Assembly: GCA_000004985.1 (NCBI GenBank)
Contig: GG739014.1
From: Naegleria gruberi
Lineage: Eukaryota
Length of the DNA: 11,225 nucleotides
Reading direction: 5' to 3' (one strand)
A model generated the notes under the pieces. That model saw only the letters and a list, made by a program, of their open reading frames with translations, was not told where the DNA came from and made no database searches. Below are positions 195-11,060 of this stretch, one piece after another; position 1 is the stretch's first letter, and each line of letters starts with the position of its first letter. The position numbers and the translations under genes are program-made.

Positions 195-873
195 TTAAGA
201 ATAATTGATAACCTGAATACGAGAATTATTTCTATCAACGAGTAATATTTCCTGTTGTCTTCTATTATAGCACAATCCGTATGGGTGATGGAATTGACCA
301 AGAGATTTTCCCTTACTGCCAAATGTTTGTTCTTCCTGACCAGTAAATCGATCTAGTATTTTCAGAGATGAATGATATGAATCTGAAACGATCAATTTGT
401 AATTGAAGGGACTAACTTGATCTATACAAATTCCAAAAGGAGAATAGAGTGAATTATTTCCAATCTCCTTGACAAGAATCCATTCATTTGGACTAATTTC
501 TCTAATAATATGAATGTTATTCTTGTCTGGACTTGCTATAATTACCTCTCCAAACTTTGTGAAACATTCCACATTGACAATGTTCGGATTCTTCACATGA
601 ATTTCTTTACCCAATGAATAACTCACATATCGAGTAATTGATTGTAAGATACTTCCATCCACAGTTGAAACAATCTTGATAGCATGATTGTAATTATCAG
701 CCACAAACACCACATTATCCCTGAATGTCTTTCCATACGAAATGGAAATTGATGATGGTTCCTTAAATTCTGTCCTCCCACTTTCATCCAAAATTCCTAC
801 ACACCACGTATAATCCCTATCAAGAGCTCCCAACTTGATATTATTGGTCTTCCACAATACCTTTAAATTCACC
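195..873 (-). CDS. C-terminal fragment of an NHL-repeat (six-bladed beta-propeller type) protein; upstream part lost in assembly gap
   Basis: Open minus-strand frame from gap edge 873 down to stop TAA (revcomp of 195-197). The translation contains several units matching the NHL repeat pattern, e.g. GSKGKSLGQFHHPYGLCYNRRQQEILLVDRNNSRIQVIN, LYSPFGICIDQVSPFNYKLIVSDSYHSSLKILD, FGEVIIASPDKNNIHIIRE and DNVVFVADNYNHAIKIV (Gly-x-Phe...hydrophobic-Val/Ile-Asp...Asn-x-Ile/Val). Confidence 0.7.
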
Positions 874-3800
874 NNNNNNNNNNNNNNNNNNNNNNNNNNN
901 NNNNNNNNNNNNNNNNNNNNNNNNNNNNNNNNNNNNNNNNNNNNNNNNNNNNNNNNNNNNNNNNNNNNNNNNNNNNNNNNNNNNNNNNNNNNNNNNNNNN
1001 NNNNNNNNNNNNNNNNNNNNNNNNNNNNNNNNNNNNNNNNNNNNNNNNNNNNNNNNNNNNNNNNNNNNNNNNNNNNNNNNNNNNNNNNNNNNNNNNNNNN
1101 NNNNNNNNNNNNNNNNNNNNNNNNNNNNNNNNNNNNNNNNNNNNNNNNNNNNNNNNNNNNNNNNNNNNNNNNNNNNNNNNNNNNNNNNNNNNNNNNNNNN
1201 NNNNNNNNNNNNNNNNNNNNNNNNNNNNNNNNNNNNNNNNNNNNNNNNNNNNNNNNNNNNNNNNNNNNNNNNNNNNNNNNNNNNNNNNNNNNNNNNNNNN
1301 NNNNNNNNNNNNNNNNNNNNNNNNNNNNNNNNNNNNNNNNNNNNNNNNNNNNNNNNNNNNNNNNNNNNNNNNNNNNNNNNNNNNNNNNNNNNNNNNNNNN
1401 NNNNNNNNNNNNNNNNNNNNNNNNNNNNNNNNNNNNNNNNNNNNNNNNNNNNNNNNNNNNNNNNNNNNNNNNNNNNNNNNNNNNNNNNNNNNNNNNNNNN
1501 NNNNNNNNNNNNNNNNNNNNNNNNNNNNNNNNNNNNNNNNNNNNNNNNNNNNNNNNNNNNNNNNNNNNNNNNNNNNNNNNNNNNNNNNNNNNNNNNNNNN
1601 NNNNNNNNNNNNNNNNNNNNNNNNNNNNNNNNNNNNNNNNNNNNNNNNNNNNNNNNNNNNNNNNNNNNNNNNNNNNNNNNNNNNNNNNNNNNNNNNNNNN
1701 NNNNNNNNNNNNNNNNNNNNNNNNNNNNNNNNNNNNNNNNNNNNNNNNNNNNNNNNNNNNNNNNNNNNNNNNNNNNNNNNNNNNNNNNNNNNNNNNNNNN
1801 NNNNNNNNNNNNNNNNNNNNNNNNNNNNNNNNNNNNNNNNNNNNNNNNNNNNNNNNNNNNNNNNNNNNNNNNNNNNNNNNNNNNNNNNNNNNNNNNNNNN
1901 NNNNNNNNNNNNNNNNNNNNNNNNNNNNNNNNNNNNNNNNNNNNNNNNNNNNNNNNNNNNNNNNNNNNNNNNNNNNNNNNNNNNNNNNNNNNNNNNNNNN
2001 NNNNNNNNNNNNNNNNNNNNNNNNNNNNNNNNNNNNNNNNNNNNNNNNNNNNNNNNNNNNNNNNNNNNNNNNNNNNNNNNNNNNNNNNNNNNNNNNNNNN
2101 NNNNNNNNNNNNNNNNNNNNNNNNNNNNNNNNNNNNNNNNNNNNNNNNNNNNNNNNNNNNNNNNNNNNNNNNNNNNNNNNNNNNNNNNNNNNNNNNNNNN
2201 NNNNNNNNNNNNNNNNNNNNNNNNNNNNNNNNNNNNNNNNNNNNNNNNNNNNNNNNNNNNNNNNNNNNNNNNNNNNNNNNNNNNNNNNNNNNNNNNNNNN
2301 NNNNNNNNNNNNNNNNNNNNNNNNNNNNNNNNNNNNNNNNNNNNNNNNNNNNNNNNNNNNNNNNNNNNNNNNNNNNNNNNNNNNNNNNNNNNNNNNNNNN
2401 NNNNNNNNNNNNNNNNNNNNNNNNNNNNNNNNNNNNNNNNNNNNNNNNNNNNNNNNNNNNNNNNNNNNNNNNNNNNNNNNNNNNNNNNNNNNNNNNNNNN
2501 NNNNNNNNNNNNNNNNNNNNNNNNNNNNNNNNNNNNNNNNNNNNNNNNNNNNNNNNNNNNNNNNNNNNNNNNNNNNNNNNNNNNNNNNNNNNNNNNNNNN
2601 NNNNNNNNNNNNNNNNNNNNNNNNNNNNNNNNNNNNNNNNNNNNNNNNNNNNNNNNNNNNNNNNNNNNNNNNNNNNNNNNNNNNNNNNNNNNNNNNNNNN
2701 NNNNNNNNNNNNNNNNNNNNNNNNNNNNNNNNNNNNNNNNNNNNNNNNNNNNNNNNNNNNNNNNNNNNNNNNNNNNNNNNNNNNNNNNNNNNNNNNNNNN
2801 NNNNNNNNNNNNNNNNNNNNNNNNNNNNNNNNNNNNNNNNNNNNNNNNNNNNNNNNNNNNNNNNNNNNNNNNNNNNNNNNNNNNNNNNNNNNNNNNNNNN
2901 NNNNNNNNNNNNNNNNNNNNNNNNNNNNNNNNNNNNNNNNNNNNNNNNNNNNNNNNNNNNNNNNNNNNNNNNNNNNNNNNNNNNNNNNNNNNNNNNNNNN
3001 NNNNNNNNNNNNNNNNNNNNNNNNNNNNNNNNNNNNNNNNNNNNNNNNNNNNNNNNNNNNNNNNNNNNNNNNNNNNNNNNNNNNNNNNNNNNNNNNNNNN
3101 NNNNNNNNNNNNNNNNNNNNNNNNNNNNNNNNNNNNNNNNNNNNNNNNNNNNNNNNNNNNNNNNNNNNNNNNNNNNNNNNNNNNNNNNNNNNNNNNNNNN
3201 NNNNNNNNNNNNNNNNNNNNNNNNNNNNNNNNNNNNNNNNNNNNNNNNNNNNNNNNNNNNNNNNNNNNNNNNNNNNNNNNNNNNNNNNNNNNNNNNNNNN
3301 NNNNNNNNNNNNNNNNNNNNNNNNNNNNNNNNNNNNNNNNNNNNNNNNNNNNNNNNNNNNNNNNNNNNNNNNNNNNNNNNNNNNNNNNNNNNNNNNNNNN
3401 NNNNNNNNNNNNNNNNNNNNNNNNNNNNNNNNNNNNNNNNNNNNNNNNNNNNNNNNNNNNNNNNNNNNNNNNNNNNNNNNNNNNNNNNNNNNNNNNNNNN
3501 NNNNNNNNNNNNNNNNNNNNNNNNNNNNNNNNNNNNNNNNNNNNNNNNNNNNNNNNNNNNNNNNNNNNNNNNNNNNNNNNNNNNNNNNNNNNNNNNNNNN
3601 NNNNNNNNNNNNNNNNNNNNNNNNNNNNNNNNNNNNNNNNNNNNNNNNNNNNNNNNNNNNNNNNNNNNNNNNNNNNNNNNNNNNNNNNNNNNNNNNNNNN
3701 NNNNNNNNNNNNNNNNNNNNNNNNNNNNNNNNNNNNNNNNNNNNNNNNNNNNNNNNNNNNNNNNNNNNNNNNNNNNNNNNNNNNNNNNNNNNNNNNNNNN

Positions 3801-4933
3801 NNNNNNNNNNNNNNNNNNNNNNNNNNNNNNNNNNNNNNNNNNNNNNNNNNNNNNNNNNNNNNNNNNNNNNNNNNNNNNNNNNNNNNNNNNNNNNNNNNNN
3901 NNNNNNNNNNNNNNNNNNNNNNNNNNNNNNNNNNNNNNNNNNNNNNNNNNNNNNNNNNNNNNNNNNNNNNNNNNNNNNNNNNNNNNNNNNNNNNNNNNNN
4001 NNNNNNNNNNNNNNNNNNNNNNNNNNNNNNNNNNNNNNNNNNNNNNNNNNNNNNNNNNNNNNNNNNNNNNNNNNNNNNNNNNNNNNNNNNNNNNNNNNNN
4101 NNNNNNNNNNNNNNNNNNNNNNNNNNNNNNNNNNNNNNNNNNNNNNNNNNNNNNNNNNNNNNNNNNNNNNNNNNNNNNNNNNNNNNNNNNNNNNNNNNNN
4201 NNNNNNNNNNNNNNNNNNNNNNNNNNNNNNNNNNNNNNNNNNNNNNNNNNNNNNNNNNNNNNNNNNNNNNNNNNNNNNNNNNNNNNNNNNNNNNNNNNNN
4301 NNNNNNNNNNNNNNNNNNNNNNNNNNNNNNNNNNNNNNNNNNNNNNNNNNNNNNNNNNNNNNNNNNNNNNNNNNNNNNNNNNNNNNNNNNNNNNNNNNNN
4401 NNNNNNNNNNNNNNNNNNNNNNNNNNNNNNNNNNNNNNNNNNNNNNNNNNNNNNNNNNNNNNNNNNNNNNNNNNNNNNNNNNNNNNNNNNNNNNNNNNNN
4501 NNNNNNNNNNNNNNNNNNNNNNNNNNNNNNNNNNNNNNNNNNNNNNNNNNNNNNNNNNNNNNNNNNNNNNNNNNNNNNNNNNNNNNNNNNNNNNNNNNNN
4601 NNNNNNNNNNNNNNNNNNNNNNNNNNNNNNNNNNNNNNNNNNNNNNNNNNNNNNNNNNNNNNNNNNNNNNNNNNNNNNNNNNNNNNNNNNNNNNNNNNNN
4701 NNNNNNNNNNNNNNNNNNNNNNNNNNNNNNNNNNNNNNNNNNNNNNNNNNNNNNNNNNNNNNNNNNNNNNNNNNNNNNNNNNNNNNNNNNNNNNNNNNNN
4801 NNNNNNNNNNNNNNNNNNNNNNNNNNNNNNNNNNNNNNNNNNNNNNNNNNNNNNNNNNNNNNNNNNNNNNNNNNNNNNNNNNNNNNNNNNNNNNNNNNNN
4901 NNNNNNNNNNNNNNNNNNNNNNNNNNNNNNNNN
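874..4933. other. Assembly gap (4060 N)
   Basis: Uninterrupted run of n. Frames reported across it by the ORF track are meaningless. Confidence 1.
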
Positions 4934-5301
4934 TGAGTGAGAGCATTAATTGCTTTATGAGTGTCTGAACTTAACGAAATATCTAATATATTATTGGTTT
5001 TCAATTGATTCTCAATGGTTTTCAATAAACTTTCCTGATCTGAAGCATCTACTTTTTCTGCAATATGAATTTTCTTCCACTTTTCAATGCCTGCTTTTTT
5101 TTTTTTTTGAACCTTAATTTCCAATTCTGTCATGTCAGCCAATTTGATTCCAATGGTGTCTGGAATAACAATCTTTCCTTCTTTATCCACAATGATGAAA
5201 TAACTATCATCCTTTGTCTCCATTTGATCTTTGTTTTCGGAAACTGCAAGTTGATATTCTTGTGCATTGATTTGTTTAAATCTTCTAAATTCGAAACCCA
5301 T
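4934..5301 (-). CDS. N-terminal fragment of a protein-coding gene (MGFEFRRFKQINAQEY...), continues into the gap; may be the same gene as the NHL fragment
   Basis: ATG (revcomp of 5299-5301) in an A-rich Kozak-like context (aaaaaATGG). The frame is open for about 122 codons down to the gap edge at 4934. Charged, lysine-rich sequence with a coiled-coil flavour. No family recognised. Confidence 0.5.
5095..5108 (-). repeat. A14 homopolymer inside the coding sequence (T14 on plus strand) encoding Q-K-K-K-K
   Basis: tgc-T14-gaacc on the plus strand reads gtt caa aaa aaa aaa aaa gca ggc (VQKKKKAG) on the minus strand. Confidence 0.8.
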
Positions 5302-6205: not shown

Positions 6206-6566
6206 ATGAACGCAAAGATTATCATTGCCTGTCTCTTGATCGCTGTCTTGTGCTTTGCCACTTTCGGTATGGCTGCTGTGAGTATTTTCAATTTTAAATA
6301 TGCTTATTAATAATCTATTAATCCTTAATAATATTCAGGCTGCTAAGAAGAACCTTAGAAAGGCTCCAGTTGCTAGAAGAGCTTCCACTAAAGCTGTTAG
6401 AACTACCAAACCAACCAAGACTACCAAGACTTTTAAGCCAAAGAAAGCCGGTAAGCCAAAGAAGGCTCCAGTTGTTGTCAAGAAGAGCACTGTTTCCACC
6501 AAGAGTGTTGGTTCTGCTCCAGCTGTCAAAAAGCCTTTCAAGCTTAAGCCAATCTATAATTTTTAA
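6206..6566 (+). CDS. Small secreted, highly basic (Lys/Arg/Pro/Thr-rich, histone-H1-tail-like) protein; two exons (6206-6277, 6339-6566) with a 61-nt phase-0 intron
   Basis: Exon 1 starts at ATG 6206 and encodes MNAKIIIACLLIAVLCFATFGMAA, a typical hydrophobic signal peptide. GTGAGT at 6278 and ...ttcag ending at 6338 define a 61-nt intron that carries in-frame stops. Exon 2 continues in the same frame as AAKKNLRKAPVARRASTKAVRTTKPTKTTKTFKPKKAGKPKKAPVVVKKSTVSTKSVGSAPAVKKPFKLKPIYNF and ends at TAA 6564-6566. Codon usage (gct, aag, cca, ggt, aga) is consistent with the other genes. Confidence 0.6.
6278..6338 (+). other. Spliceosomal intron (GTGAGT ... CAG), 61 nt
   Basis: 5' splice site gtgagt at 6278-6283 and 3' acceptor ttcag at 6334-6338. 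The interior is AT-rich with in-frame stop codons. Length is typical of short fungal introns. Confidence 0.55.
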
Positions 6567-6646: not shown

Positions 6647-7093
6647 CTAACCCAATTTATGGGCACTAATCTTGTGGGGGACTCGTTTGTAAATTGAATT
6701 AATTAAGGAATTATATTTTAGATTTTCATCAATATCTATAGTAACAAGAGTTATTACATTACACCCCTTTTCCAATAAATCATCCATAAACAATAAAAAT
6801 CCATATAGAGCTAGATCGTGAGAGTACTCTCCACATAATGTGTCATTAGAAAATTCAATATCGCTGCCGTATTGTTCCACGTGTCGGTAGAATAAAGTAT
6901 GAGCAAATTCTCTAGCAACAAGATTGACGAGACCAACTTGAATCAAACTAAATTCGGGATCGCTCAAAATAACTGTTGTTGGTCTTTTTAATTGGTCCAC
7001 AAGCACTGGCAGTCCAACTATCAACATTTCGGCTAATAAATTCATAAAATCCAAATACCTAAAGGATGTAAGATTTGCACATGCTGTAAACAA
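6647..7093 (-). CDS. Hypothetical protein fragment (no ATG; ORF-track 'M' is a TTG); open frame ends flush against the left 104-bp repeat
   Basis: 148-codon minus-strand open frame ending at TAG (revcomp of 6647-6649). The first codon at 7091-7093 is TTG, not ATG. The codon above it (7094-7096) is still open, and the frame is only closed by a TAA inside the repeat (7112-7114). Contains a degenerate HExxH-like stretch, AREFAHTLFYRH. Family not recognised. Confidence 0.35.
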   Translation of the reverse strand: MFTACANLTSFRYLDFMNLLAEMLIVGLPVLVDQLKRPTTVILSDPEFSLIQVGLVNLVAREFAHTLFYRHVEQYGSDIEFSNDTLCGEYSHDLALYGFLLFMDDLLEKGCNVITLVTIDIDENLKYNSLINSIYKRVPHKISAHKLG

Positions 7094-7096
7094 AAC

Positions 7097-7200
7097 TGTT
7101 CTTATCGAAGTTTACTGAGATAAAGTAGTGTTTCTTGAAAACAACAATTGAATAAACTAATAATAGAAAGTATGCTCAAAAAAATTGTCATACTATGGTC
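7097..7200 (+). repeat. Left copy of a perfect 104-bp direct repeat (LTR-like or att-like); contains the recombinase ORF start codon
   Basis: tgttcttatcgaagtttactgagataaagtagtgtttcttgaaaacaacaattgaataaactaataatagaaagtatgctcaaaaaaattgtcatactATGgtc is identical base-for-base to 10690-10793. The flanks diverge immediately outside. ATG 7195-7197 lies in the last 6 bp. Confidence 0.9.
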
Positions 7201-8256
7201 GCTAAGAAGCCTCAAGATATTGACTCCTCTTCATCTGATGAAGATCTCCCAGCAGTTGAAGTAGAATACCCCACAACACCAGTGAAAGCAAGAAAACAAC
7301 AAGCTGCTAAGAAGCTTAGAAAGTTAAAGGCCATGTCACCTGTAGCTAATAGAAATAAGCGCAAACAATCTACTTCAGTTTCATCATCTAACAGTGCCTT
7401 AGATGATGGTATTTCAACTGTTGTTTCCAGTTCGTTGCTAAGCAATTCAACTTTGTTGGATAGTTCTTCAACTGCACCCTCTTCGTCAAACAATTCGTCT
7501 TCTTCCAATTCAGGTAGAGATAGTTTTGCCAGTAGTTCATCTGAACATGATATCATGGCGATCAAAGCCCAAATGCAAGAAATGATTGGAGTTTTGAGAA
7601 CCGTAATAGGAAATATCTCTGAACTTACTAAGAAAGTTCAGGAGAGAGAAGAAGAATCAGATGATGATTTTGTTAATCCAGAAGCTATATCTCCAGAAGT
7701 TTGGTTACGTCAAACTTATAGAGACCTTAGAAGTTCTTACAATGTTCCTTCATCCATTGGAGATGATTTATTACTATCTGCAGTATCCTCCGAGATACTT
7801 AAAGACCGTAAACAAGAGGAGACCAAGAGAAGAATTCAATATTTGCTCCTTAAATACAAGGATGTGATTTCCAAGTTTGCCCCAGACATTAGATTGGATG
7901 AGATTAACAGTATTGGTTATTCTAAACTAGTAGAGTTAACTCAAATCAAAATTGAATTGTTGGAATATGCATTGAATTCTCCACTTGATTTTACAGTCAT
8001 GACAGAGATTACAGAACTTTGTAGAATGATTTGCAAAGTTGAAGCCCTCTTCCTTAAAGAAGGTTTACAAGTTTCCACTTTCGATGTTGGTAGAGAATTC
8101 CTTAACAGATACATTTCTACTAATAGTTTCGAAACTGCTGCCGAAAGTGAACTTCATAATATTAGAACAACATATCATTACTACAAAGCAACCAAGCAGC
8201 AACAAGGTCCAAAGGGAATTACCAAGAAGTATTCTAAGAAGAAACCGTTTCAAAAG
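7195..8256 (+). CDS. N-terminal part of the element ORF: Ser-rich, acidic/basic low-complexity region with NLS-like basic cluster, then a helical region; runs into the gap
   Basis: ATG 7195 in a good context (actATGg). It opens a 354-codon frame to the gap edge, with codon usage like neighbouring genes. The N-terminal stretch runs MVAKKPQDIDSSSSDEDLPAVEVEYPTTPVKARKQQAAKKLRKLKAMSPVANRNKRKQ... through to ...KKYSKKKPFQK at the gap edge. No RT, RNase H or integrase motifs are visible in this part. Confidence 0.6.
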
Positions 8257-9893
8257 NNNNNNNNNNNNNNNNNNNNNNNNNNNNNNNNNNNNNNNNNNNN
8301 NNNNNNNNNNNNNNNNNNNNNNNNNNNNNNNNNNNNNNNNNNNNNNNNNNNNNNNNNNNNNNNNNNNNNNNNNNNNNNNNNNNNNNNNNNNNNNNNNNNN
8401 NNNNNNNNNNNNNNNNNNNNNNNNNNNNNNNNNNNNNNNNNNNNNNNNNNNNNNNNNNNNNNNNNNNNNNNNNNNNNNNNNNNNNNNNNNNNNNNNNNNN
8501 NNNNNNNNNNNNNNNNNNNNNNNNNNNNNNNNNNNNNNNNNNNNNNNNNNNNNNNNNNNNNNNNNNNNNNNNNNNNNNNNNNNNNNNNNNNNNNNNNNNN
8601 NNNNNNNNNNNNNNNNNNNNNNNNNNNNNNNNNNNNNNNNNNNNNNNNNNNNNNNNNNNNNNNNNNNNNNNNNNNNNNNNNNNNNNNNNNNNNNNNNNNN
8701 NNNNNNNNNNNNNNNNNNNNNNNNNNNNNNNNNNNNNNNNNNNNNNNNNNNNNNNNNNNNNNNNNNNNNNNNNNNNNNNNNNNNNNNNNNNNNNNNNNNN
8801 NNNNNNNNNNNNNNNNNNNNNNNNNNNNNNNNNNNNNNNNNNNNNNNNNNNNNNNNNNNNNNNNNNNNNNNNNNNNNNNNNNNNNNNNNNNNNNNNNNNN
8901 NNNNNNNNNNNNNNNNNNNNNNNNNNNNNNNNNNNNNNNNNNNNNNNNNNNNNNNNNNNNNNNNNNNNNNNNNNNNNNNNNNNNNNNNNNNNNNNNNNNN
9001 NNNNNNNNNNNNNNNNNNNNNNNNNNNNNNNNNNNNNNNNNNNNNNNNNNNNNNNNNNNNNNNNNNNNNNNNNNNNNNNNNNNNNNNNNNNNNNNNNNNN
9101 NNNNNNNNNNNNNNNNNNNNNNNNNNNNNNNNNNNNNNNNNNNNNNNNNNNNNNNNNNNNNNNNNNNNNNNNNNNNNNNNNNNNNNNNNNNNNNNNNNNN
9201 NNNNNNNNNNNNNNNNNNNNNNNNNNNNNNNNNNNNNNNNNNNNNNNNNNNNNNNNNNNNNNNNNNNNNNNNNNNNNNNNNNNNNNNNNNNNNNNNNNNN
9301 NNNNNNNNNNNNNNNNNNNNNNNNNNNNNNNNNNNNNNNNNNNNNNNNNNNNNNNNNNNNNNNNNNNNNNNNNNNNNNNNNNNNNNNNNNNNNNNNNNNN
9401 NNNNNNNNNNNNNNNNNNNNNNNNNNNNNNNNNNNNNNNNNNNNNNNNNNNNNNNNNNNNNNNNNNNNNNNNNNNNNNNNNNNNNNNNNNNNNNNNNNNN
9501 NNNNNNNNNNNNNNNNNNNNNNNNNNNNNNNNNNNNNNNNNNNNNNNNNNNNNNNNNNNNNNNNNNNNNNNNNNNNNNNNNNNNNNNNNNNNNNNNNNNN
9601 NNNNNNNNNNNNNNNNNNNNNNNNNNNNNNNNNNNNNNNNNNNNNNNNNNNNNNNNNNNNNNNNNNNNNNNNNNNNNNNNNNNNNNNNNNNNNNNNNNNN
9701 NNNNNNNNNNNNNNNNNNNNNNNNNNNNNNNNNNNNNNNNNNNNNNNNNNNNNNNNNNNNNNNNNNNNNNNNNNNNNNNNNNNNNNNNNNNNNNNNNNNN
9801 NNNNNNNNNNNNNNNNNNNNNNNNNNNNNNNNNNNNNNNNNNNNNNNNNNNNNNNNNNNNNNNNNNNNNNNNNNNNNNNNNNNNNNNNNNNNN
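8257..9893. other. Assembly gap (1637 N) inside the element ORF
   Basis: Run of n. About 545 codons could be hidden here. The reading frame across it is undefined. Confidence 1.
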
Positions 9894-10657
9894 AAGGTCA
9901 AACATCTCGTGTTGAAGCCTTGAGACCATCCCTTCAATTTTGGGCCAATATTGAGAGAAGAGTTTTTCCAATTTCATGGTCTTATGATAAGATTAAAAGA
10001 GGAATTACTCTTATTTGGTCCTTGATTGATAGAAAAGCTTTGAAACGTGATCCAATTTTCTATCATCATATTGAAGGTTTCATTCAGAGAAAAGATCATT
10101 ATGATCCTTTCATTTTCAAACTCACTAGTGCCATGTTAGTCATTGGTTTCAGACTTTTCGCTAGACCAGGTGAATTAGCTAGACTCAAGTGGGGTTATGT
10201 TACAAAGCTTAGAAATGGTAACATCAAATTAGATCTCAGTGGTCACAAAACAGATTTCTTTCTACTAGAAAAGCCGATTACTATTGACAAGCATCTTGAA
10301 AATCCTTCAGTGTGTCCAGTGAAATTGCTTTTTGATTACATGAACACTGTACAGCATTTCAAAAAAGCAGATTCACCATTGTTTTCATTGCAGGACAATA
10401 TTTTCTTCAACACTGAAGATGTTTCTCAACTTATCAAGAATGCTATGTTCTCTGTTGATTCAGAAATCACTGTTTCTGGTCACAGTTTACGTATTGGTGC
10501 AACTACTGAGAGTATTATCAAGGGAATTCCTACTCAGGATATTATTATGGGGACTAGACATAAGGATGTGAAATCTTTACAACCTTATCAAAGACAAGAA
10601 GCTCTTGCAGCTCGCCACTTGTCTACTACTCTCCTTTCTCGGGACAATATCCATTAG
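9894..10657 (+). CDS. C-terminal part of the element ORF: tyrosine recombinase (phage-integrase-fold) catalytic domain, ends at TAG 10655-10657
   Basis: Translation from the gap edge begins GQTSRVEALRPSLQFWANIERR. It continues through LFARPGELARLKWGYV (box-I Arg in the RxxELxxLxW pattern) and LDLSGHKTDFFLL (beta-hairpin Lys). It then reaches VSGHSLRIGATTESIIKGIP (box-II HxLR). It ends with IMGTRHKDVKSLQPYQRQ (conserved His plus the Tyr nucleophile). The full R-K-H-R-H-Y catalytic set is present in canonical order and spacing. Y sits about 25 aa from the C-terminus. Confidence 0.85.
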
Positions 10658-10689
10658 TTTATTTATTGTTGGTTTTCTTTTAAGAAACA

Positions 10690-10793
10690 TGTTCTTATCG
10701 AAGTTTACTGAGATAAAGTAGTGTTTCTTGAAAACAACAATTGAATAAACTAATAATAGAAAGTATGCTCAAAAAAATTGTCATACTATGGTC
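10690..10793 (+). repeat. Right copy of the perfect 104-bp direct repeat; carries AATAAA (10744-10749) 3' of the recombinase stop
   Basis: Identical to 7097-7200 and starts 32 bp after TAG 10655-10657. Its internal ATG (10788) would give only an 11-codon ORF (MVPPLPTLYYY*). Confidence 0.9.
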
Positions 10794-10810
10794 CCACCCT
10801 TGCCCACCCT
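10794..10810 (+). repeat. CCACCCT tgc CCACCCT: GC-rich 7-bp direct doublet abutting the right repeat
   Basis: ccaccct at 10794-10800 and 10804-10810. It is strikingly GC-rich in an AT-rich context and starts exactly at the repeat boundary. Confidence 0.6.
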
Positions 10811-10832
10811 CTATTATTATTAGTTTATTCAA
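10810..10832 (-). repeat. Inverted copy of 20 bp of the 104-bp repeat (pairs with 10741-10760), potential long hairpin across the right element boundary
   Basis: tctattattattagtttattcaa is the reverse complement of ttgaataaactaataataga (10741-10760 in R2; 7148-7167 in R1), with a 3-bp insertion. Confidence 0.6.
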
Positions 10833-11018: not shown

Positions 11019-11060
11019 TTGGTGATCTAAAACCAATTGTTGGTGATCTAAAACCGACAG
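11019..11060 (+). repeat. 21-bp tandem repeat x2 (ttggtgatctaaaacc + 5 variable nt)
   Basis: ttggtgatctaaaaccaattg at 11019-11039 and ttggtgatctaaaaccgacag at 11040-11060. The first 16 nt are identical. Confidence 0.7.

What the first reader, a model, noticed from the sequence alone, without database searches (positions are those of the whole stretch)
9894..10657. Complete R-K-H-R-H-Y catalytic signature at the extreme C-terminus of the element protein
All six residues are read directly from the translation, in canonical order and spacing, as listed in the 9894-10657 feature. The characteristic box-I pattern R-P-G-E-L-x-x-L-x-W is also present.

The Tyr lies about 25 residues from the stop, so there is no room for a C-terminal DNA-binding domain of the kind found after the recombinase in fungal Cryptons. 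C-terminal placement of the YR domain is instead the arrangement seen in Ngaro/PAT-like pol proteins. Together with the roughly 545 codons that could sit in the gap, this leaves open that an RT/RNase H domain is hidden there.
Basis: partly seen in the sequence, partly recalled or inferred. Interest (0 to 1): 0.7.

Follow-up and report, generated by a model that had tools for sequence, protein, structure and literature searches.

The report
Naegleria DIRS-type retrotransposon tyrosine recombinase
The flagged stretch encodes a genuine Cre-like tyrosine recombinase at the 3' end of a recently active DIRS-type retrotransposon of Naegleria gruberi, whose reverse transcriptase lies in the assembly gap, so it is a real but known kind of mobile element.

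Summary
Window 9896-10657 encodes R-K-H-x-x-R-H-Y in canonical order, with 22 residues after the Tyr. The six positions are conserved across a family reaching about 20% identity. A family profile aligns them to Cre R173/K201/H289/R292/W315/Y324 (E=4e-12), and an AlphaFold model matches Cre over its full length.

The window is an 11,225-nt Naegleria gruberi scaffold. A copy 98.5% identical on both sides of the gap (L001) shows what the N run hides. ORF1 (gag position) stops 21 codons into the gap. It is followed by a 637-aa pol (RT, RNase H, degenerate Dam-like methyltransferase) in another frame, and the recombinase ORF lies in pol's -1 frame.

The idea of one continuous protein was wrong, and Ngaro is excluded by the methyltransferase domain. 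The element belongs to the DIRS group. Whether it is Dirs1-like or PAT-like is unresolved, because the right end is not defined.

DIRS1-like sequences in N. gruberi were already listed by Piednoel et al. 2011, though called uncertain.

Side observations: a conserved ~100-nt palindrome spans the unit junction, head-to-tail copies occur, and the public gene model NAEGRDRAFT_76524 is an artefactual gag-recombinase fusion.

The parts
7097..7200 (+). A1: the left terminal 104 nt of the element. It holds the 5' leader and the ORF1 start codon (ATG at 7195) and is repeated exactly as A2.
   Evidence: Two copies with different flanks share the left boundary TGTTCTTATCG... (window 7097 and L001 61). 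Homology of the flanking gene to P0026 stops at 7096. A1 and A2 are identical at 104 of 104 positions.
7195..8256 (+). ORF1, visible part (354 of 375 codons). It occupies the gag position, is serine-rich at the N-terminus, helical in the core and has a basic tail.
   Evidence: It matches the 375-aa P0014 with one mismatch. Full copies end ...KFQGKDKDKSE*, 21 codons into the gap. It has no Pfam family. The AF2 model is too poor to use (pLDDT 44).
8257..9893 (.). Assembly gap (1637 N). By inference it hides the ORF1 end, the whole pol ORF (RT, RNase H, methyltransferase-like) and the first ~73 codons of the 326-aa recombinase ORF.
   Evidence: L001 aligns at 98.4% to 7097-8256 and at 98.6% to 9894-10793. 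The stretch between them is 2080 nt in L001 (1212-3291). It contains a pol with RVT_1 at E=3e-26, Dam at E=8e-4 and RVT_3 at E=0.017.
9896..10657 (+). Tyrosine recombinase ORF, visible part (253 codons plus the stop). It covers the end of the N-terminal core-binding domain and the whole catalytic domain.
   Evidence: It is 100% identical to the last 253 residues of P0017 (NAEGRDRAFT_54063).
10163..10588 (+). Span of the catalytic residues: R 10163-10165, K 10247-10249, H 10481-10483, R 10490-10492, H 10559-10561 and Y 10586-10588.
   Evidence: Coordinates are.
10653..10754 (+). Junction palindrome of about 102 nt that folds as one long hairpin. It spans the point where the unit's 3' end meets a copy of its 5' end (10689|10690).
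   Evidence: MFE -33.7 kcal/mol, z=-6.7, and none of 200 shuffles folds as well. L001 has the identical structure. The sister family L029 has an equivalent hairpin directly after its YR stop (z=-5.8). A1 alone does not fold better than chance (z=+0.3).
10690..10793 (+). A2: an exact direct copy of the element's first 104 nt, placed 32 nt after the recombinase stop codon.
10815..10832 (+). An 18-nt perfect inverted copy of the A-core sequence TTGAATAAACTAATAATA (7148-7165 and 10741-10758), 21 nt beyond A2. With A2 it forms a second hairpin across the A2/right-flank junction. Whether it belongs to the element or to the target is unresolved.
   Evidence: I5, I6. None of 3000 composition-matched random flanks reaches 18 nt (maximum 15). 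The hairpin over 10741-10832 has z=-4.9.
6650..7096 (-). Left flank: the C-terminal 149 codons of a paralogue of a 678-aa protein (P0026), cut off exactly at the element's left end.
   Evidence: The exhaustive search gave E=6e-88. tblastn maps P0026 residues 530-678 to 7096-6650 at 98% and finds nothing to the right of the element.

Best explanation
Window 9896-10657 is the 3' part of the tyrosine recombinase (YR) ORF of a DIRS-order retrotransposon of Naegleria gruberi. The repeating unit is about 4.03 kb. It consists of a 104-nt leader (A), ORF1 in the gag position (375 aa), a pol ORF with reverse transcriptase, RNase H and a degenerate Dam/PCIF1-like methyltransferase domain (637 aa), and a YR ORF in the -1 frame of pol. 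[quoted passage not shown]

Shown here:
- The recombinase has the full catalytic hexad and a two-domain Cre-like fold.
- pol lies immediately upstream of the YR in a near-identical copy and in 19 related loci.
- The -1-frame overlap is maintained by strong avoidance of stop codons.
- The left end of the element is at 7097.
- The first 104 nt are repeated exactly after the YR.
- A conserved palindrome spans that junction.

Inferred from what is established for DIRS-1 and related elements: the element is transcribed and reverse-transcribed by pol. The internal junction copy (B1-A2), possibly with the hairpin acting as primer or annealing guide, is used to rebuild and join the ends into a circular DNA. 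The YR then integrates this circle by conservative site-specific recombination through a 3'-phosphotyrosine intermediate at Tyr 10586-10588, without target-site duplication, and often into or next to existing copies, which would give head-to-tail arrays.

The identical A1 and A2, the intact visible ORFs and several copies at 97-99% identity point to recent activity.
For: - YR identity.
- Organism and copy number: P0001 and P0017 (326 aa) and P0014, P0022 and P0024 (375 aa) are on several N. gruberi scaffolds. ORF1 and YR models carry consecutive accession numbers (EFC46443/46444, EFC36891/36890, EFC35641/35640).
- Hidden pol: L001 carries ORF1 at 159-1277, pol at 1237-3150 (RVT_1) and YR up to 4046. 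It is 98.4-98.6% identical to the window on both sides of the gap.
- pol domains: RVT_1 in 19 of 19 family members, Dam in 16 of 19 (best 9e-8) and RT_RNaseH in 8 of 19. The best PDB match is the Ty3 RT/RNase H at E=9e-50. The YxDD aspartates and RNase H D383/E412/D440/D491 are invariant.
- Gene order: pol lies upstream of YR on the same strand in all 19 loci with enough upstream DNA.
- Frame overlap: the YR ORF is in the -1 frame of pol in 20 of 21 loci, with 0-1 stops in most loci against 20-50 expected.
- Termini and palindrome.
- Left boundary inside a gene paralogue.
- Head-to-tail copies: L001 and L002/L003.
- Literature: DIRS1-like hits in N. gruberi (PMC3266345), DIRS hits in N. lovaniensis (PMC6125883) and the DIRS-1 mechanism (PMC7192593).
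Against: - pol is not visible in this copy. Its presence here is inferred from another copy, and the N run (1637 nt) is 443 nt shorter than the corresponding stretch in L001, so an internal deletion cannot be excluded.
- L001 comes from a metagenome assembly whose organism is not stated.
- The Pfam match of the YR is below the gathering threshold when taken alone.
- The right end is not defined. No B2 repeat and no long inverted terminal repeat were found in the 432 nt available, and the right flank does not continue the interrupted gene.
- In this family the long YR frame has three stops and pol has no nearby ATG, so how pol and YR are translated is unknown.
- No experiment shows transposition, circles or recombinase activity in Naegleria.
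Confidence: 0.92

Rival explanations
1. It is a Crypton-type DNA transposon: a YR-only element that moves as DNA, with ORF1 and the YR as exons of one transposase gene.
For: The visible window shows only ORF1 and a YR domain. The public gene model P0023 joins them into one 569-aa protein.
Against: A copy 98.5% identical has a 637-aa RT-RNase H-MT ORF between them. All 19 related loci with upstream DNA have pol upstream of the YR. ORF1 ends at a stop in four full copies. P0023 treats the N run plus about 100 nt of coding sequence as an intron.
Confidence: 0.02
2. It is an Ngaro-like or VIPER-like YR retrotransposon, which is the reader's suggestion and would fit the kinship of Naegleria with kinetoplastids.
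For: The YR lies after RT/RNase H at the 3' end. A direct repeat of the 5' end follows the YR, as in split-direct-repeat elements. VIPER and TATE occur in Discoba (PMC6681497).
Against: pol has a Dam-like MT domain (E=8e-4 in this family, 16 of 19 relatives, best 9e-8). The YR ORF overlaps pol over 1-2 kb. Ngaro and VIPER lack the MT domain and usually lack ORF overlaps (PMC3266345, PMC4157794).
Confidence: 0.04
3. It is a dead relic: the YR signature is intact by chance in a decayed copy, and the element is no longer mobile.
For: Piednoel et al. found the N. gruberi copies too frameshifted to analyse. In this family the long overlapping YR frame has three stops. L002/L003 carry a YR that has lost its Tyr.
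Against: Both visible ORFs in the window are open. The YR is 100% identical to another genomic copy, and ORF1 differs at 1 of 354 residues. A1 and A2 are identical over 104 nt. In the split-repeat model such identity marks a recent insertion (PMC6681497). L001 has all three ORFs open with the catalytic motifs intact.
Confidence: 0.15

Closest known systems
DIRS-1 of Dictyostelium discoideum and Dirs1-like elements
   Same: Three ORFs (gag position, pol with RT-RNase H-MT, and YR). The YR ORF overlaps pol over a long stretch, with the catalytic domain in the non-overlapping 3' end. The RT/RNase H is closest to Ty3/gypsy. An internal sequence near the 3' end is complementary to part of the left terminus. 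Copies tend to lie next to other copies.
   Different: No long inverted terminal repeats were found. Instead the first 104 nt recur as an exact direct copy after the YR. The only inverted matches are short (25 nt at 80% and 18 nt at 100%) and lie 40-70 nt inside the left end, not at the tip. The right end is undefined.
PAT-like elements (Pat1, kangaroo, TOC)
   Same: An MT-containing pol, with a direct repeat of the 5' terminus (A1/A2) placed after the YR. The more distant metagenomic relatives L007, L011, L014 and L015 show full split direct repeats (A 127-187 nt, B 53-99 nt).
   Different: No B1/B2 pair could be found in the window (score 15 against 14.1 +/- 1.9 for shuffles). In the relatives an unrelated stretch of 343-405 nt separates A2 from B2, whereas the textbook layout is B1-A2-B2.
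Ngaro and VIPER/TATE
   Same: YR retrotransposons with the YR downstream of RT/RNase H and with direct-type repeats. VIPER and TATE occur in the related Discoba lineage.
   Different: They lack the MT domain and usually lack ORF overlap. Both features are present here.
Cryptons
   Same: A eukaryotic YR with the same catalytic residues.
   Different: Cryptons have no RT. Fungal Cryptons carry a C-terminal DNA-binding domain, whereas here only 22 residues follow the Tyr.
Cre recombinase (phage P1)
   Same: Best sequence-profile and fold match. It has two domains (a helical core-binding domain and a catalytic domain) and aligned R/K/H/R/(W or H)/Y residues.
   Different: About 15% identity. The window protein has His at the Cre W315 position. 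The recombination site is unknown. The candidate is a ~100-nt palindrome rather than a 34-bp lox site.

Membership tests
Tyrosine recombinase superfamily | Catalytic residues R, K, H-x-x-R, H/W and the Tyr nucleophile, in that order | tested here: met
   All are present, conserved in the family and aligned to Cre R173/K201/H289/R292/W315/Y324.
Tyrosine recombinase superfamily | Two-domain fold: a helical core-binding domain and a catalytic domain | tested here: met
   AF2 model with pLDDT 78.5. Foldseek top hits are full-length Cre, XerA, IntI and lambda Int at probability 1.00.
Tyrosine recombinase superfamily | Match to Pfam Phage_integrase above the curated threshold | tested here: not met
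   22.6 bits against a cut-off of 27.1 for the window fragment, and 21.6 for the 326-aa protein. The relatives P0012 and P0013 pass at 50 and 45 bits. This marks a divergent member, not a non-member.
Tyrosine recombinase superfamily | DNA cleavage and strand exchange through a 3'-phosphotyrosine | not testable with these tools
   This needs biochemistry.
DIRS order (YR retrotransposons) | RT/RNase H and YR encoded in the same element | tested here: met
   Seen in the near-identical copy L001 and in 19 related loci. In the window itself pol is hidden by the gap, so it is inferred.
DIRS group (Dirs1-like plus PAT) | Methyltransferase-like domain in pol | tested here: met
   Dam PF05869 at E=8e-4 in L001 pol (below the curated cut-off), but 16 of 19 family members match, best at 9e-8, and 2 also match PCIF1_WW. 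Motif IV reads VPPI, so the domain is probably inactive, as reported for DIRS1 MT domains (PMC4738411).
Dirs1-like | Long overlap of the YR ORF with pol, with the catalytic domain in the non-overlapping 3' end | tested here: met
   346 open codons in L001 and 615 in L002, and none of 5000 shuffles reaches these values. The same holds in 20 of 21 loci.
Dirs1-like | Inverted terminal repeats plus an internal complementary region matching both extremities (two consecutive inverted pairs) | tested here: inconclusive
   Two short inverted pairs exist in the right order (7137-7161/10653-10677 and 10741-10758/10815-10832). They are 18-25 nt long and do not lie at the extremities. No long ITR was found. 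The right end was not reached.
PAT-like | Split direct repeats A1 ... B1-A2-B2 | tested here: inconclusive
   A1/A2 are present (104 nt, identical). No B2 was detected in the 432 nt available. Distant relatives have complete split direct repeats.
Ngaro / VIPER | No MT domain and usually no ORF overlap | tested here: not met
   An MT-like domain and a long overlap are both present.
Crypton | YR-only DNA transposon without RT | tested here: not met
   pol lies between ORF1 and the YR in L001 and in related loci.
DIRS superfamilies (any) | Placement in an RT/RH phylogeny with reference elements | not tested
   No reference DIRS1, PAT, Ngaro or VIPER sequences could be retrieved. Nearly all pol homologues found are unnamed metagenome proteins.

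The most novel reading that the evidence does not exclude
The Naegleria family may have a terminal architecture between Dirs1-like and PAT-like. It has an exact direct repeat of the 5' end after the YR, as in split-direct-repeat elements. It also has two consecutive short inverted pairs in the Dirs1-like order, and a conserved ~100-nt palindrome centred near the circle junction that would serve as hairpin primer or recombination site. Szitenberg et al. 2014 note that such intermediate forms between the two repeat types 'are not observed'. In sister families gag and the YR ORF also share one frame separated by a single stop codon, which leaves open a read-through Gag-X-YR fusion encoded across the whole of pol in its -1 frame.
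Probability: 0.15. Interest if true: 0.55.

Novelty: new member of a known kind. Interest (0 to 1): 0.3.

Why it matters
It settles a small open point. Piednoel et al. 2011 listed DIRS1-like hits in N. gruberi but called their presence uncertain, because the copies they found were too damaged to analyse. Here an apparently intact family is described with all three ORFs, intact catalytic motifs and identical terminal repeats. This extends well-supported MT-containing DIRS-group elements to Heterolobosea (Discoba), and so bears on how old this element type is.

It also corrects the public annotation. NAEGRDRAFT_76524 is a gag-YR fusion artefact, and the pol genes of this family are not annotated at all.

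The junction palindrome and the head-to-tail copies give concrete, testable candidates for the recombination site or the reverse-transcription primer. That step is still unknown even for DIRS-1.

Tried and rejected
- Exact-protein look-ups of the N. gruberi models P0001, P0002, P0003 and P0014 found nothing on record. The genome copies and their flanks therefore could not be read.
- A metagenome scan for a 26-mer of the terminal repeat found nothing.
- P0029's contig has pol followed by a YR, but no DNA was available.
- A single-sequence PDB search with the window fragment gave only noise. The family profile was needed.
- A search for a B1/B2 repeat in the window's right flank scored no better than shuffles.
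- The right flank and L001's 60-nt left flank have no other similarity to the unit or to each other.
- I tested whether precise excision of 7097-10793 restores the interrupted gene. The minus-strand frame stays open across the join, but the extra 38 codons do not match P0026, and tblastn finds no further P0026 homology. A simple insertion with 10793 as the right end is therefore not supported.
- The ORF1 structure prediction gave pLDDT 44 and is unusable, so no fold search was run.
- Conservation of the overlap-frame polypeptide gave only a weak excess over the control frame (7 of 24 against 0 of 24 distant pairs). This is confounded by the stops in the control frame.
- Rfam and tRNA scans of the window found nothing.
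- The pol homologue search returned almost no named proteins, so no reference-based tree was built.

Full report
**1. What the window is**

The 11,225-nt window is AT-rich eukaryotic DNA with three N runs. Protein searches identify it as Naegleria gruberi. The visible C-terminal fragment is 99% identical to the predicted protein P0001 and 100% identical to the last 253 residues of P0017. One cluster member, P0023 (NAEGRDRAFT_76524, 569 aa), lies on a contig of exactly 11,225 nt, so it is this scaffold's own gene model.

**2. The observation**

Translating 9896-10657 gives 253 codons and a stop.

| Residue | Motif | Window coordinates |
|---|---|---|
| Arg I | FARPGE | 10163-10165 |
| Lys | GHKTD | 10247-10249 |
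| His II | GHSLRIG | 10481-10483 |
| Arg II | GHSLRIG | 10490-10492 |
| His III | TRHKD | 10559-10561 |
| Tyr | LQPYQ | 10586-10588 |

The box-I string is RPGELARLKW, and 22 residues follow the Tyr.

Taken alone, Pfam Phage_integrase gives only E=1e-4 at 22.6 bits, below the 27.1-bit cut-off. The case therefore rests on three stronger tests:
- **Conservation.** In ten family members reaching about 20% identity, R, K, H, R and Y are invariant. The fifth position alternates H/W, as in known tyrosine recombinases.
- **Profile match.** A profile of the family hits Cre at E=3.9e-12 and pairs these positions with Cre R173, K201, H289, R292, W315 and Y324.
- **Fold.** An AlphaFold2 model of the 326-aa protein (pLDDT 78.5) finds Cre over its whole length as the best PDB match, followed by XerA, IntI4, lambda Int and XerH, all at probability 1.00.

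The protein is a two-domain Cre-like recombinase.

**3. What the gap hides**

ORF1 (7195-8256 visible) matches a 375-aa N. gruberi protein, P0014, with one mismatch. P0014 and three near-identical paralogues end ...KFQGKDKDKSE, only 21 codons beyond the gap edge. On three scaffolds the ORF1 and YR models carry consecutive accession numbers.

A 4,324-nt ENA contig (L001) carries members of both protein clusters. It aligns to the window at 98.4% over 7097-8256 and at 98.6% over 9894-10793. Between these stretches lie 2,080 nt, against 1,637 N in the window, so the gap size is only an estimate and says nothing about reading frames.

That stretch contains three things: the ORF1 stop, a 637-aa ORF in another frame, and the first part of the YR ORF. 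The 637-aa ORF hits RVT_1 (E=3e-26), RVT_3 (E=0.017) and Dam (E=8e-4).

A 19-member alignment of pol relatives gives the following:
- RVT_1 in 19 of 19, Dam in 16 of 19 (best 9e-8), RT_RNaseH in 8 of 19 and PCIF1_WW in 2.
- Ty3 RT/RNase H as the best solved relative, at E=9e-50.
- Invariant YxDD aspartates and RNase H D-E-D-D residues.
- An MT motif IV that reads VPPI, which fits the published view that DIRS MT domains are inactive (PMC4738411).

The idea of one protein spanning the gap is wrong. The public model P0023, which splices ORF1 to the YR across the gap, is an artefact. The N. gruberi annotation contains no pol protein of this family at all.

**4. Architecture across relatives**

Sister-family contigs have the same order of gag, pol and YR. 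These are L002, L003, L004, L005, L029 and L030, with pol 46-61% identical. Every one of the 19 retrieved loci with enough upstream DNA has a pol homologue upstream of the YR on the same strand.

In 20 of 21 loci the YR ORF lies in the -1 frame of pol. Where the pol ORF is complete, the overlap is about 1.85-2.15 kb. That frame holds 0-1 stops in most loci, against 20-50 expected (3-15 in the short or GC-rich loci). The other alternative frame behaves as chance predicts.

In L002 and L029 the YR frame opens at the codon directly after the gag stop, so gag and YR share a frame with one stop between them. In L001, the window's family, that frame has three stops and the YR ORF is open from 2109.

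A long YR/pol overlap with the catalytic domain in the non-overlapping 3' end is described for Dirs1-like elements. Ngaro and VIPER lack both the MT domain and the overlaps (PMC3266345; PMC4157794).

**5. Termini**

The left end is at 7097 (TGTTCTTATCG...). L001 shares this boundary with an unrelated flank. The left flank of the window is the C-terminal 149 codons of a paralogue of a 678-aa protein, and its homology stops exactly at 7096.

The first 104 nt (A1, which includes the ORF1 ATG) recur 32 nt after the YR stop as A2 (10690-10793), identical at 104 of 104 positions. In the split-repeat replication model, such identity marks a recent insertion (PMC6681497).

Beyond 10793 the sequence is unrelated to the unit, except for an 18-nt perfect inverted copy of an A-core motif at 10815-10832. 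None of 3000 random flanks reaches that length. The right flank does not continue the interrupted gene, and no B1/B2 repeat is detectable in the 432 nt before the contig ends.

Distant relatives (L007, L011, L014, L015) have clear split direct repeats and no inverted terminal repeats. In them, 343-405 nt of unrelated sequence lie between A2 and B2. A B2 in the window could therefore lie at or beyond the contig end.

In L001, A2 runs on into a second, diverged ORF1 (ATG changed to ATA, among other changes). In L002/L003 a truncated YR is followed 25 nt later by a new gag-like start. Head-to-tail copies therefore occur.

The element is MT-containing and so belongs to the DIRS group. Whether it is Dirs1-like or PAT-like cannot be decided from this window.

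**6. Junction palindrome**

The region 10653-10754 folds into one long hairpin (-33.7 kcal/mol, z=-6.7). The unit junction 10689|10690 lies inside a 9-bp stem. Sister family L029, with a quite different sequence, has an equivalent hairpin right after its YR stop (z=-5.8). A1 alone does not fold better than chance.

The full palindrome exists only where the 3' end of the unit meets the 5' end, that is, at the internal B1-A2 junction, in tandem copies or in a circle. Two roles are plausible:
- A self-priming or annealing structure for reverse transcription. A 3' hairpin has been proposed as primer for DIRS-1 (PMC7192593).
- The recombination site of the YR.

Neither role is tested.

**7. Mechanism**

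- **Shown:** the coding capacity, the catalytic residues, the fold, the repeat and palindrome anatomy, and the left insertion boundary.
- **Inferred from DIRS-1 work** (PMC7192593) **and the split-repeat model** (PMC6681497): transcription; reverse transcription by pol; restoration and joining of the ends using the internal junction copy; a circular double-stranded intermediate; and YR-mediated conservative integration without target duplication, often into or beside resident copies.

**8. Novelty**

Piednoel et al. 2011 already list 7 DIRS1-like hits in N. gruberi, but call their presence uncertain because the copies were too damaged to analyse. The N. lovaniensis genome paper reports 89 RepeatMasker DIRS hits.

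This is therefore a new, well-preserved member of a known kind. It yields some useful corrections to annotation and a few unexplained terminal features. It is not a new kind of system.

Noticed in passing
window 7195-10657 (gene model NAEGRDRAFT_76524 = P0023): The public 569-aa model joins ORF1 residues 1-351 directly to the recombinase at ...GITLIWSL. It treats the N run plus about 100 nt of coding sequence as an intron. It is an artefactual gag-YR fusion.
   Followed up: yes
N. gruberi proteome: No N. gruberi protein was returned for the pol of this family. ORF1 and YR are annotated as neighbouring genes, and the ~1.8 kb RT-RH-MT ORF between them is unannotated.
   Followed up: partly
L002 997-3645, L029 1201-3981 and 18 other loci: The YR ORF overlaps almost the whole pol ORF in its -1 frame, with 0-1 stops against 20-50 expected in most loci. 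In L002 and L029 it opens at the codon right after the gag stop, so gag and YR share a frame separated by one stop. This would allow a read-through fusion. The overlap-frame peptide is only weakly more conserved than the control frame.
   Followed up: partly
window 10653-10754; L029 about 3995-4110: A ~100-nt palindrome or hairpin spans the unit junction directly after the YR stop. The structure is conserved, but the sequence is not, between two families with 52% pol identity (z=-6.7 and -5.8).
   Followed up: partly
window 10815-10832: An 18-nt perfect inverted copy of TTGAATAAACTAATAATA (from the terminal repeat) lies 21 nt beyond A2. It forms a second hairpin across the A2/right-flank junction and is not reached by 3000 random flanks. 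Its origin, element terminus or target site, is unexplained.
   Followed up: partly
L001 4079-4324; L002 3664-3738: Copies are arranged head to tail. In L001, A2 continues into a second, diverged ORF1 (ATG changed to ATA, with the K-to-N variant also seen in N. gruberi P0021). In L002/L003 a YR lacking its Tyr is followed 25 nt later by a new gag-like start.
   Followed up: partly
window 6650-7096 (-): This is the C-terminal 149 codons of a paralogue (98%) of a 678-aa protein of unknown function (P0026; a second relative, P0027, is 31% identical). It is cut off exactly at the element's left end, and the rest of the gene is not on this scaffold.
   Followed up: partly
L007, L011, L014, L015: These are metagenomic DIRS-group elements (pol about 29% identical) with split direct repeats. 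A2 and B2 are separated by 343-405 nt of sequence unrelated to the rest of the element, rather than being adjacent. L014 and L015 also carry 54-nt tandem repeats upstream of B1.
   Followed up: no
window 6206-6566 (+): A small gene, read from the sequence only. Exon 1 (6206-6277) encodes a signal-peptide-like MNAKIIIACLLIAVLCFATFGMAA. A 61-nt GT-AG intron (6278-6338) follows, then a lysine-rich exon 2 to the stop at 6566.
   Followed up: no
window 195-873 (-) and 4934-5301 (-): An NHL-repeat protein fragment (Pfam NHL E=4e-10) runs into the 4,060-nt N run from one side. A 122-codon N-terminal fragment with no family match runs into it from the other side. They may be the two ends of one gene.
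   Followed up: no
window 11019-11055: The 16-mer TTGGTGATCTAAAACC occurs as two exact copies 21 nt apart in the right flank.
   Followed up: no
L001 pol residues 554-557 (nt 2896-2907): The methyltransferase-like domain has VPPI where N6-adenine methyltransferases have (D/N)PP(Y/F). It is probably catalytically dead, in line with published remarks on DIRS1 MT domains.
   Followed up: partly
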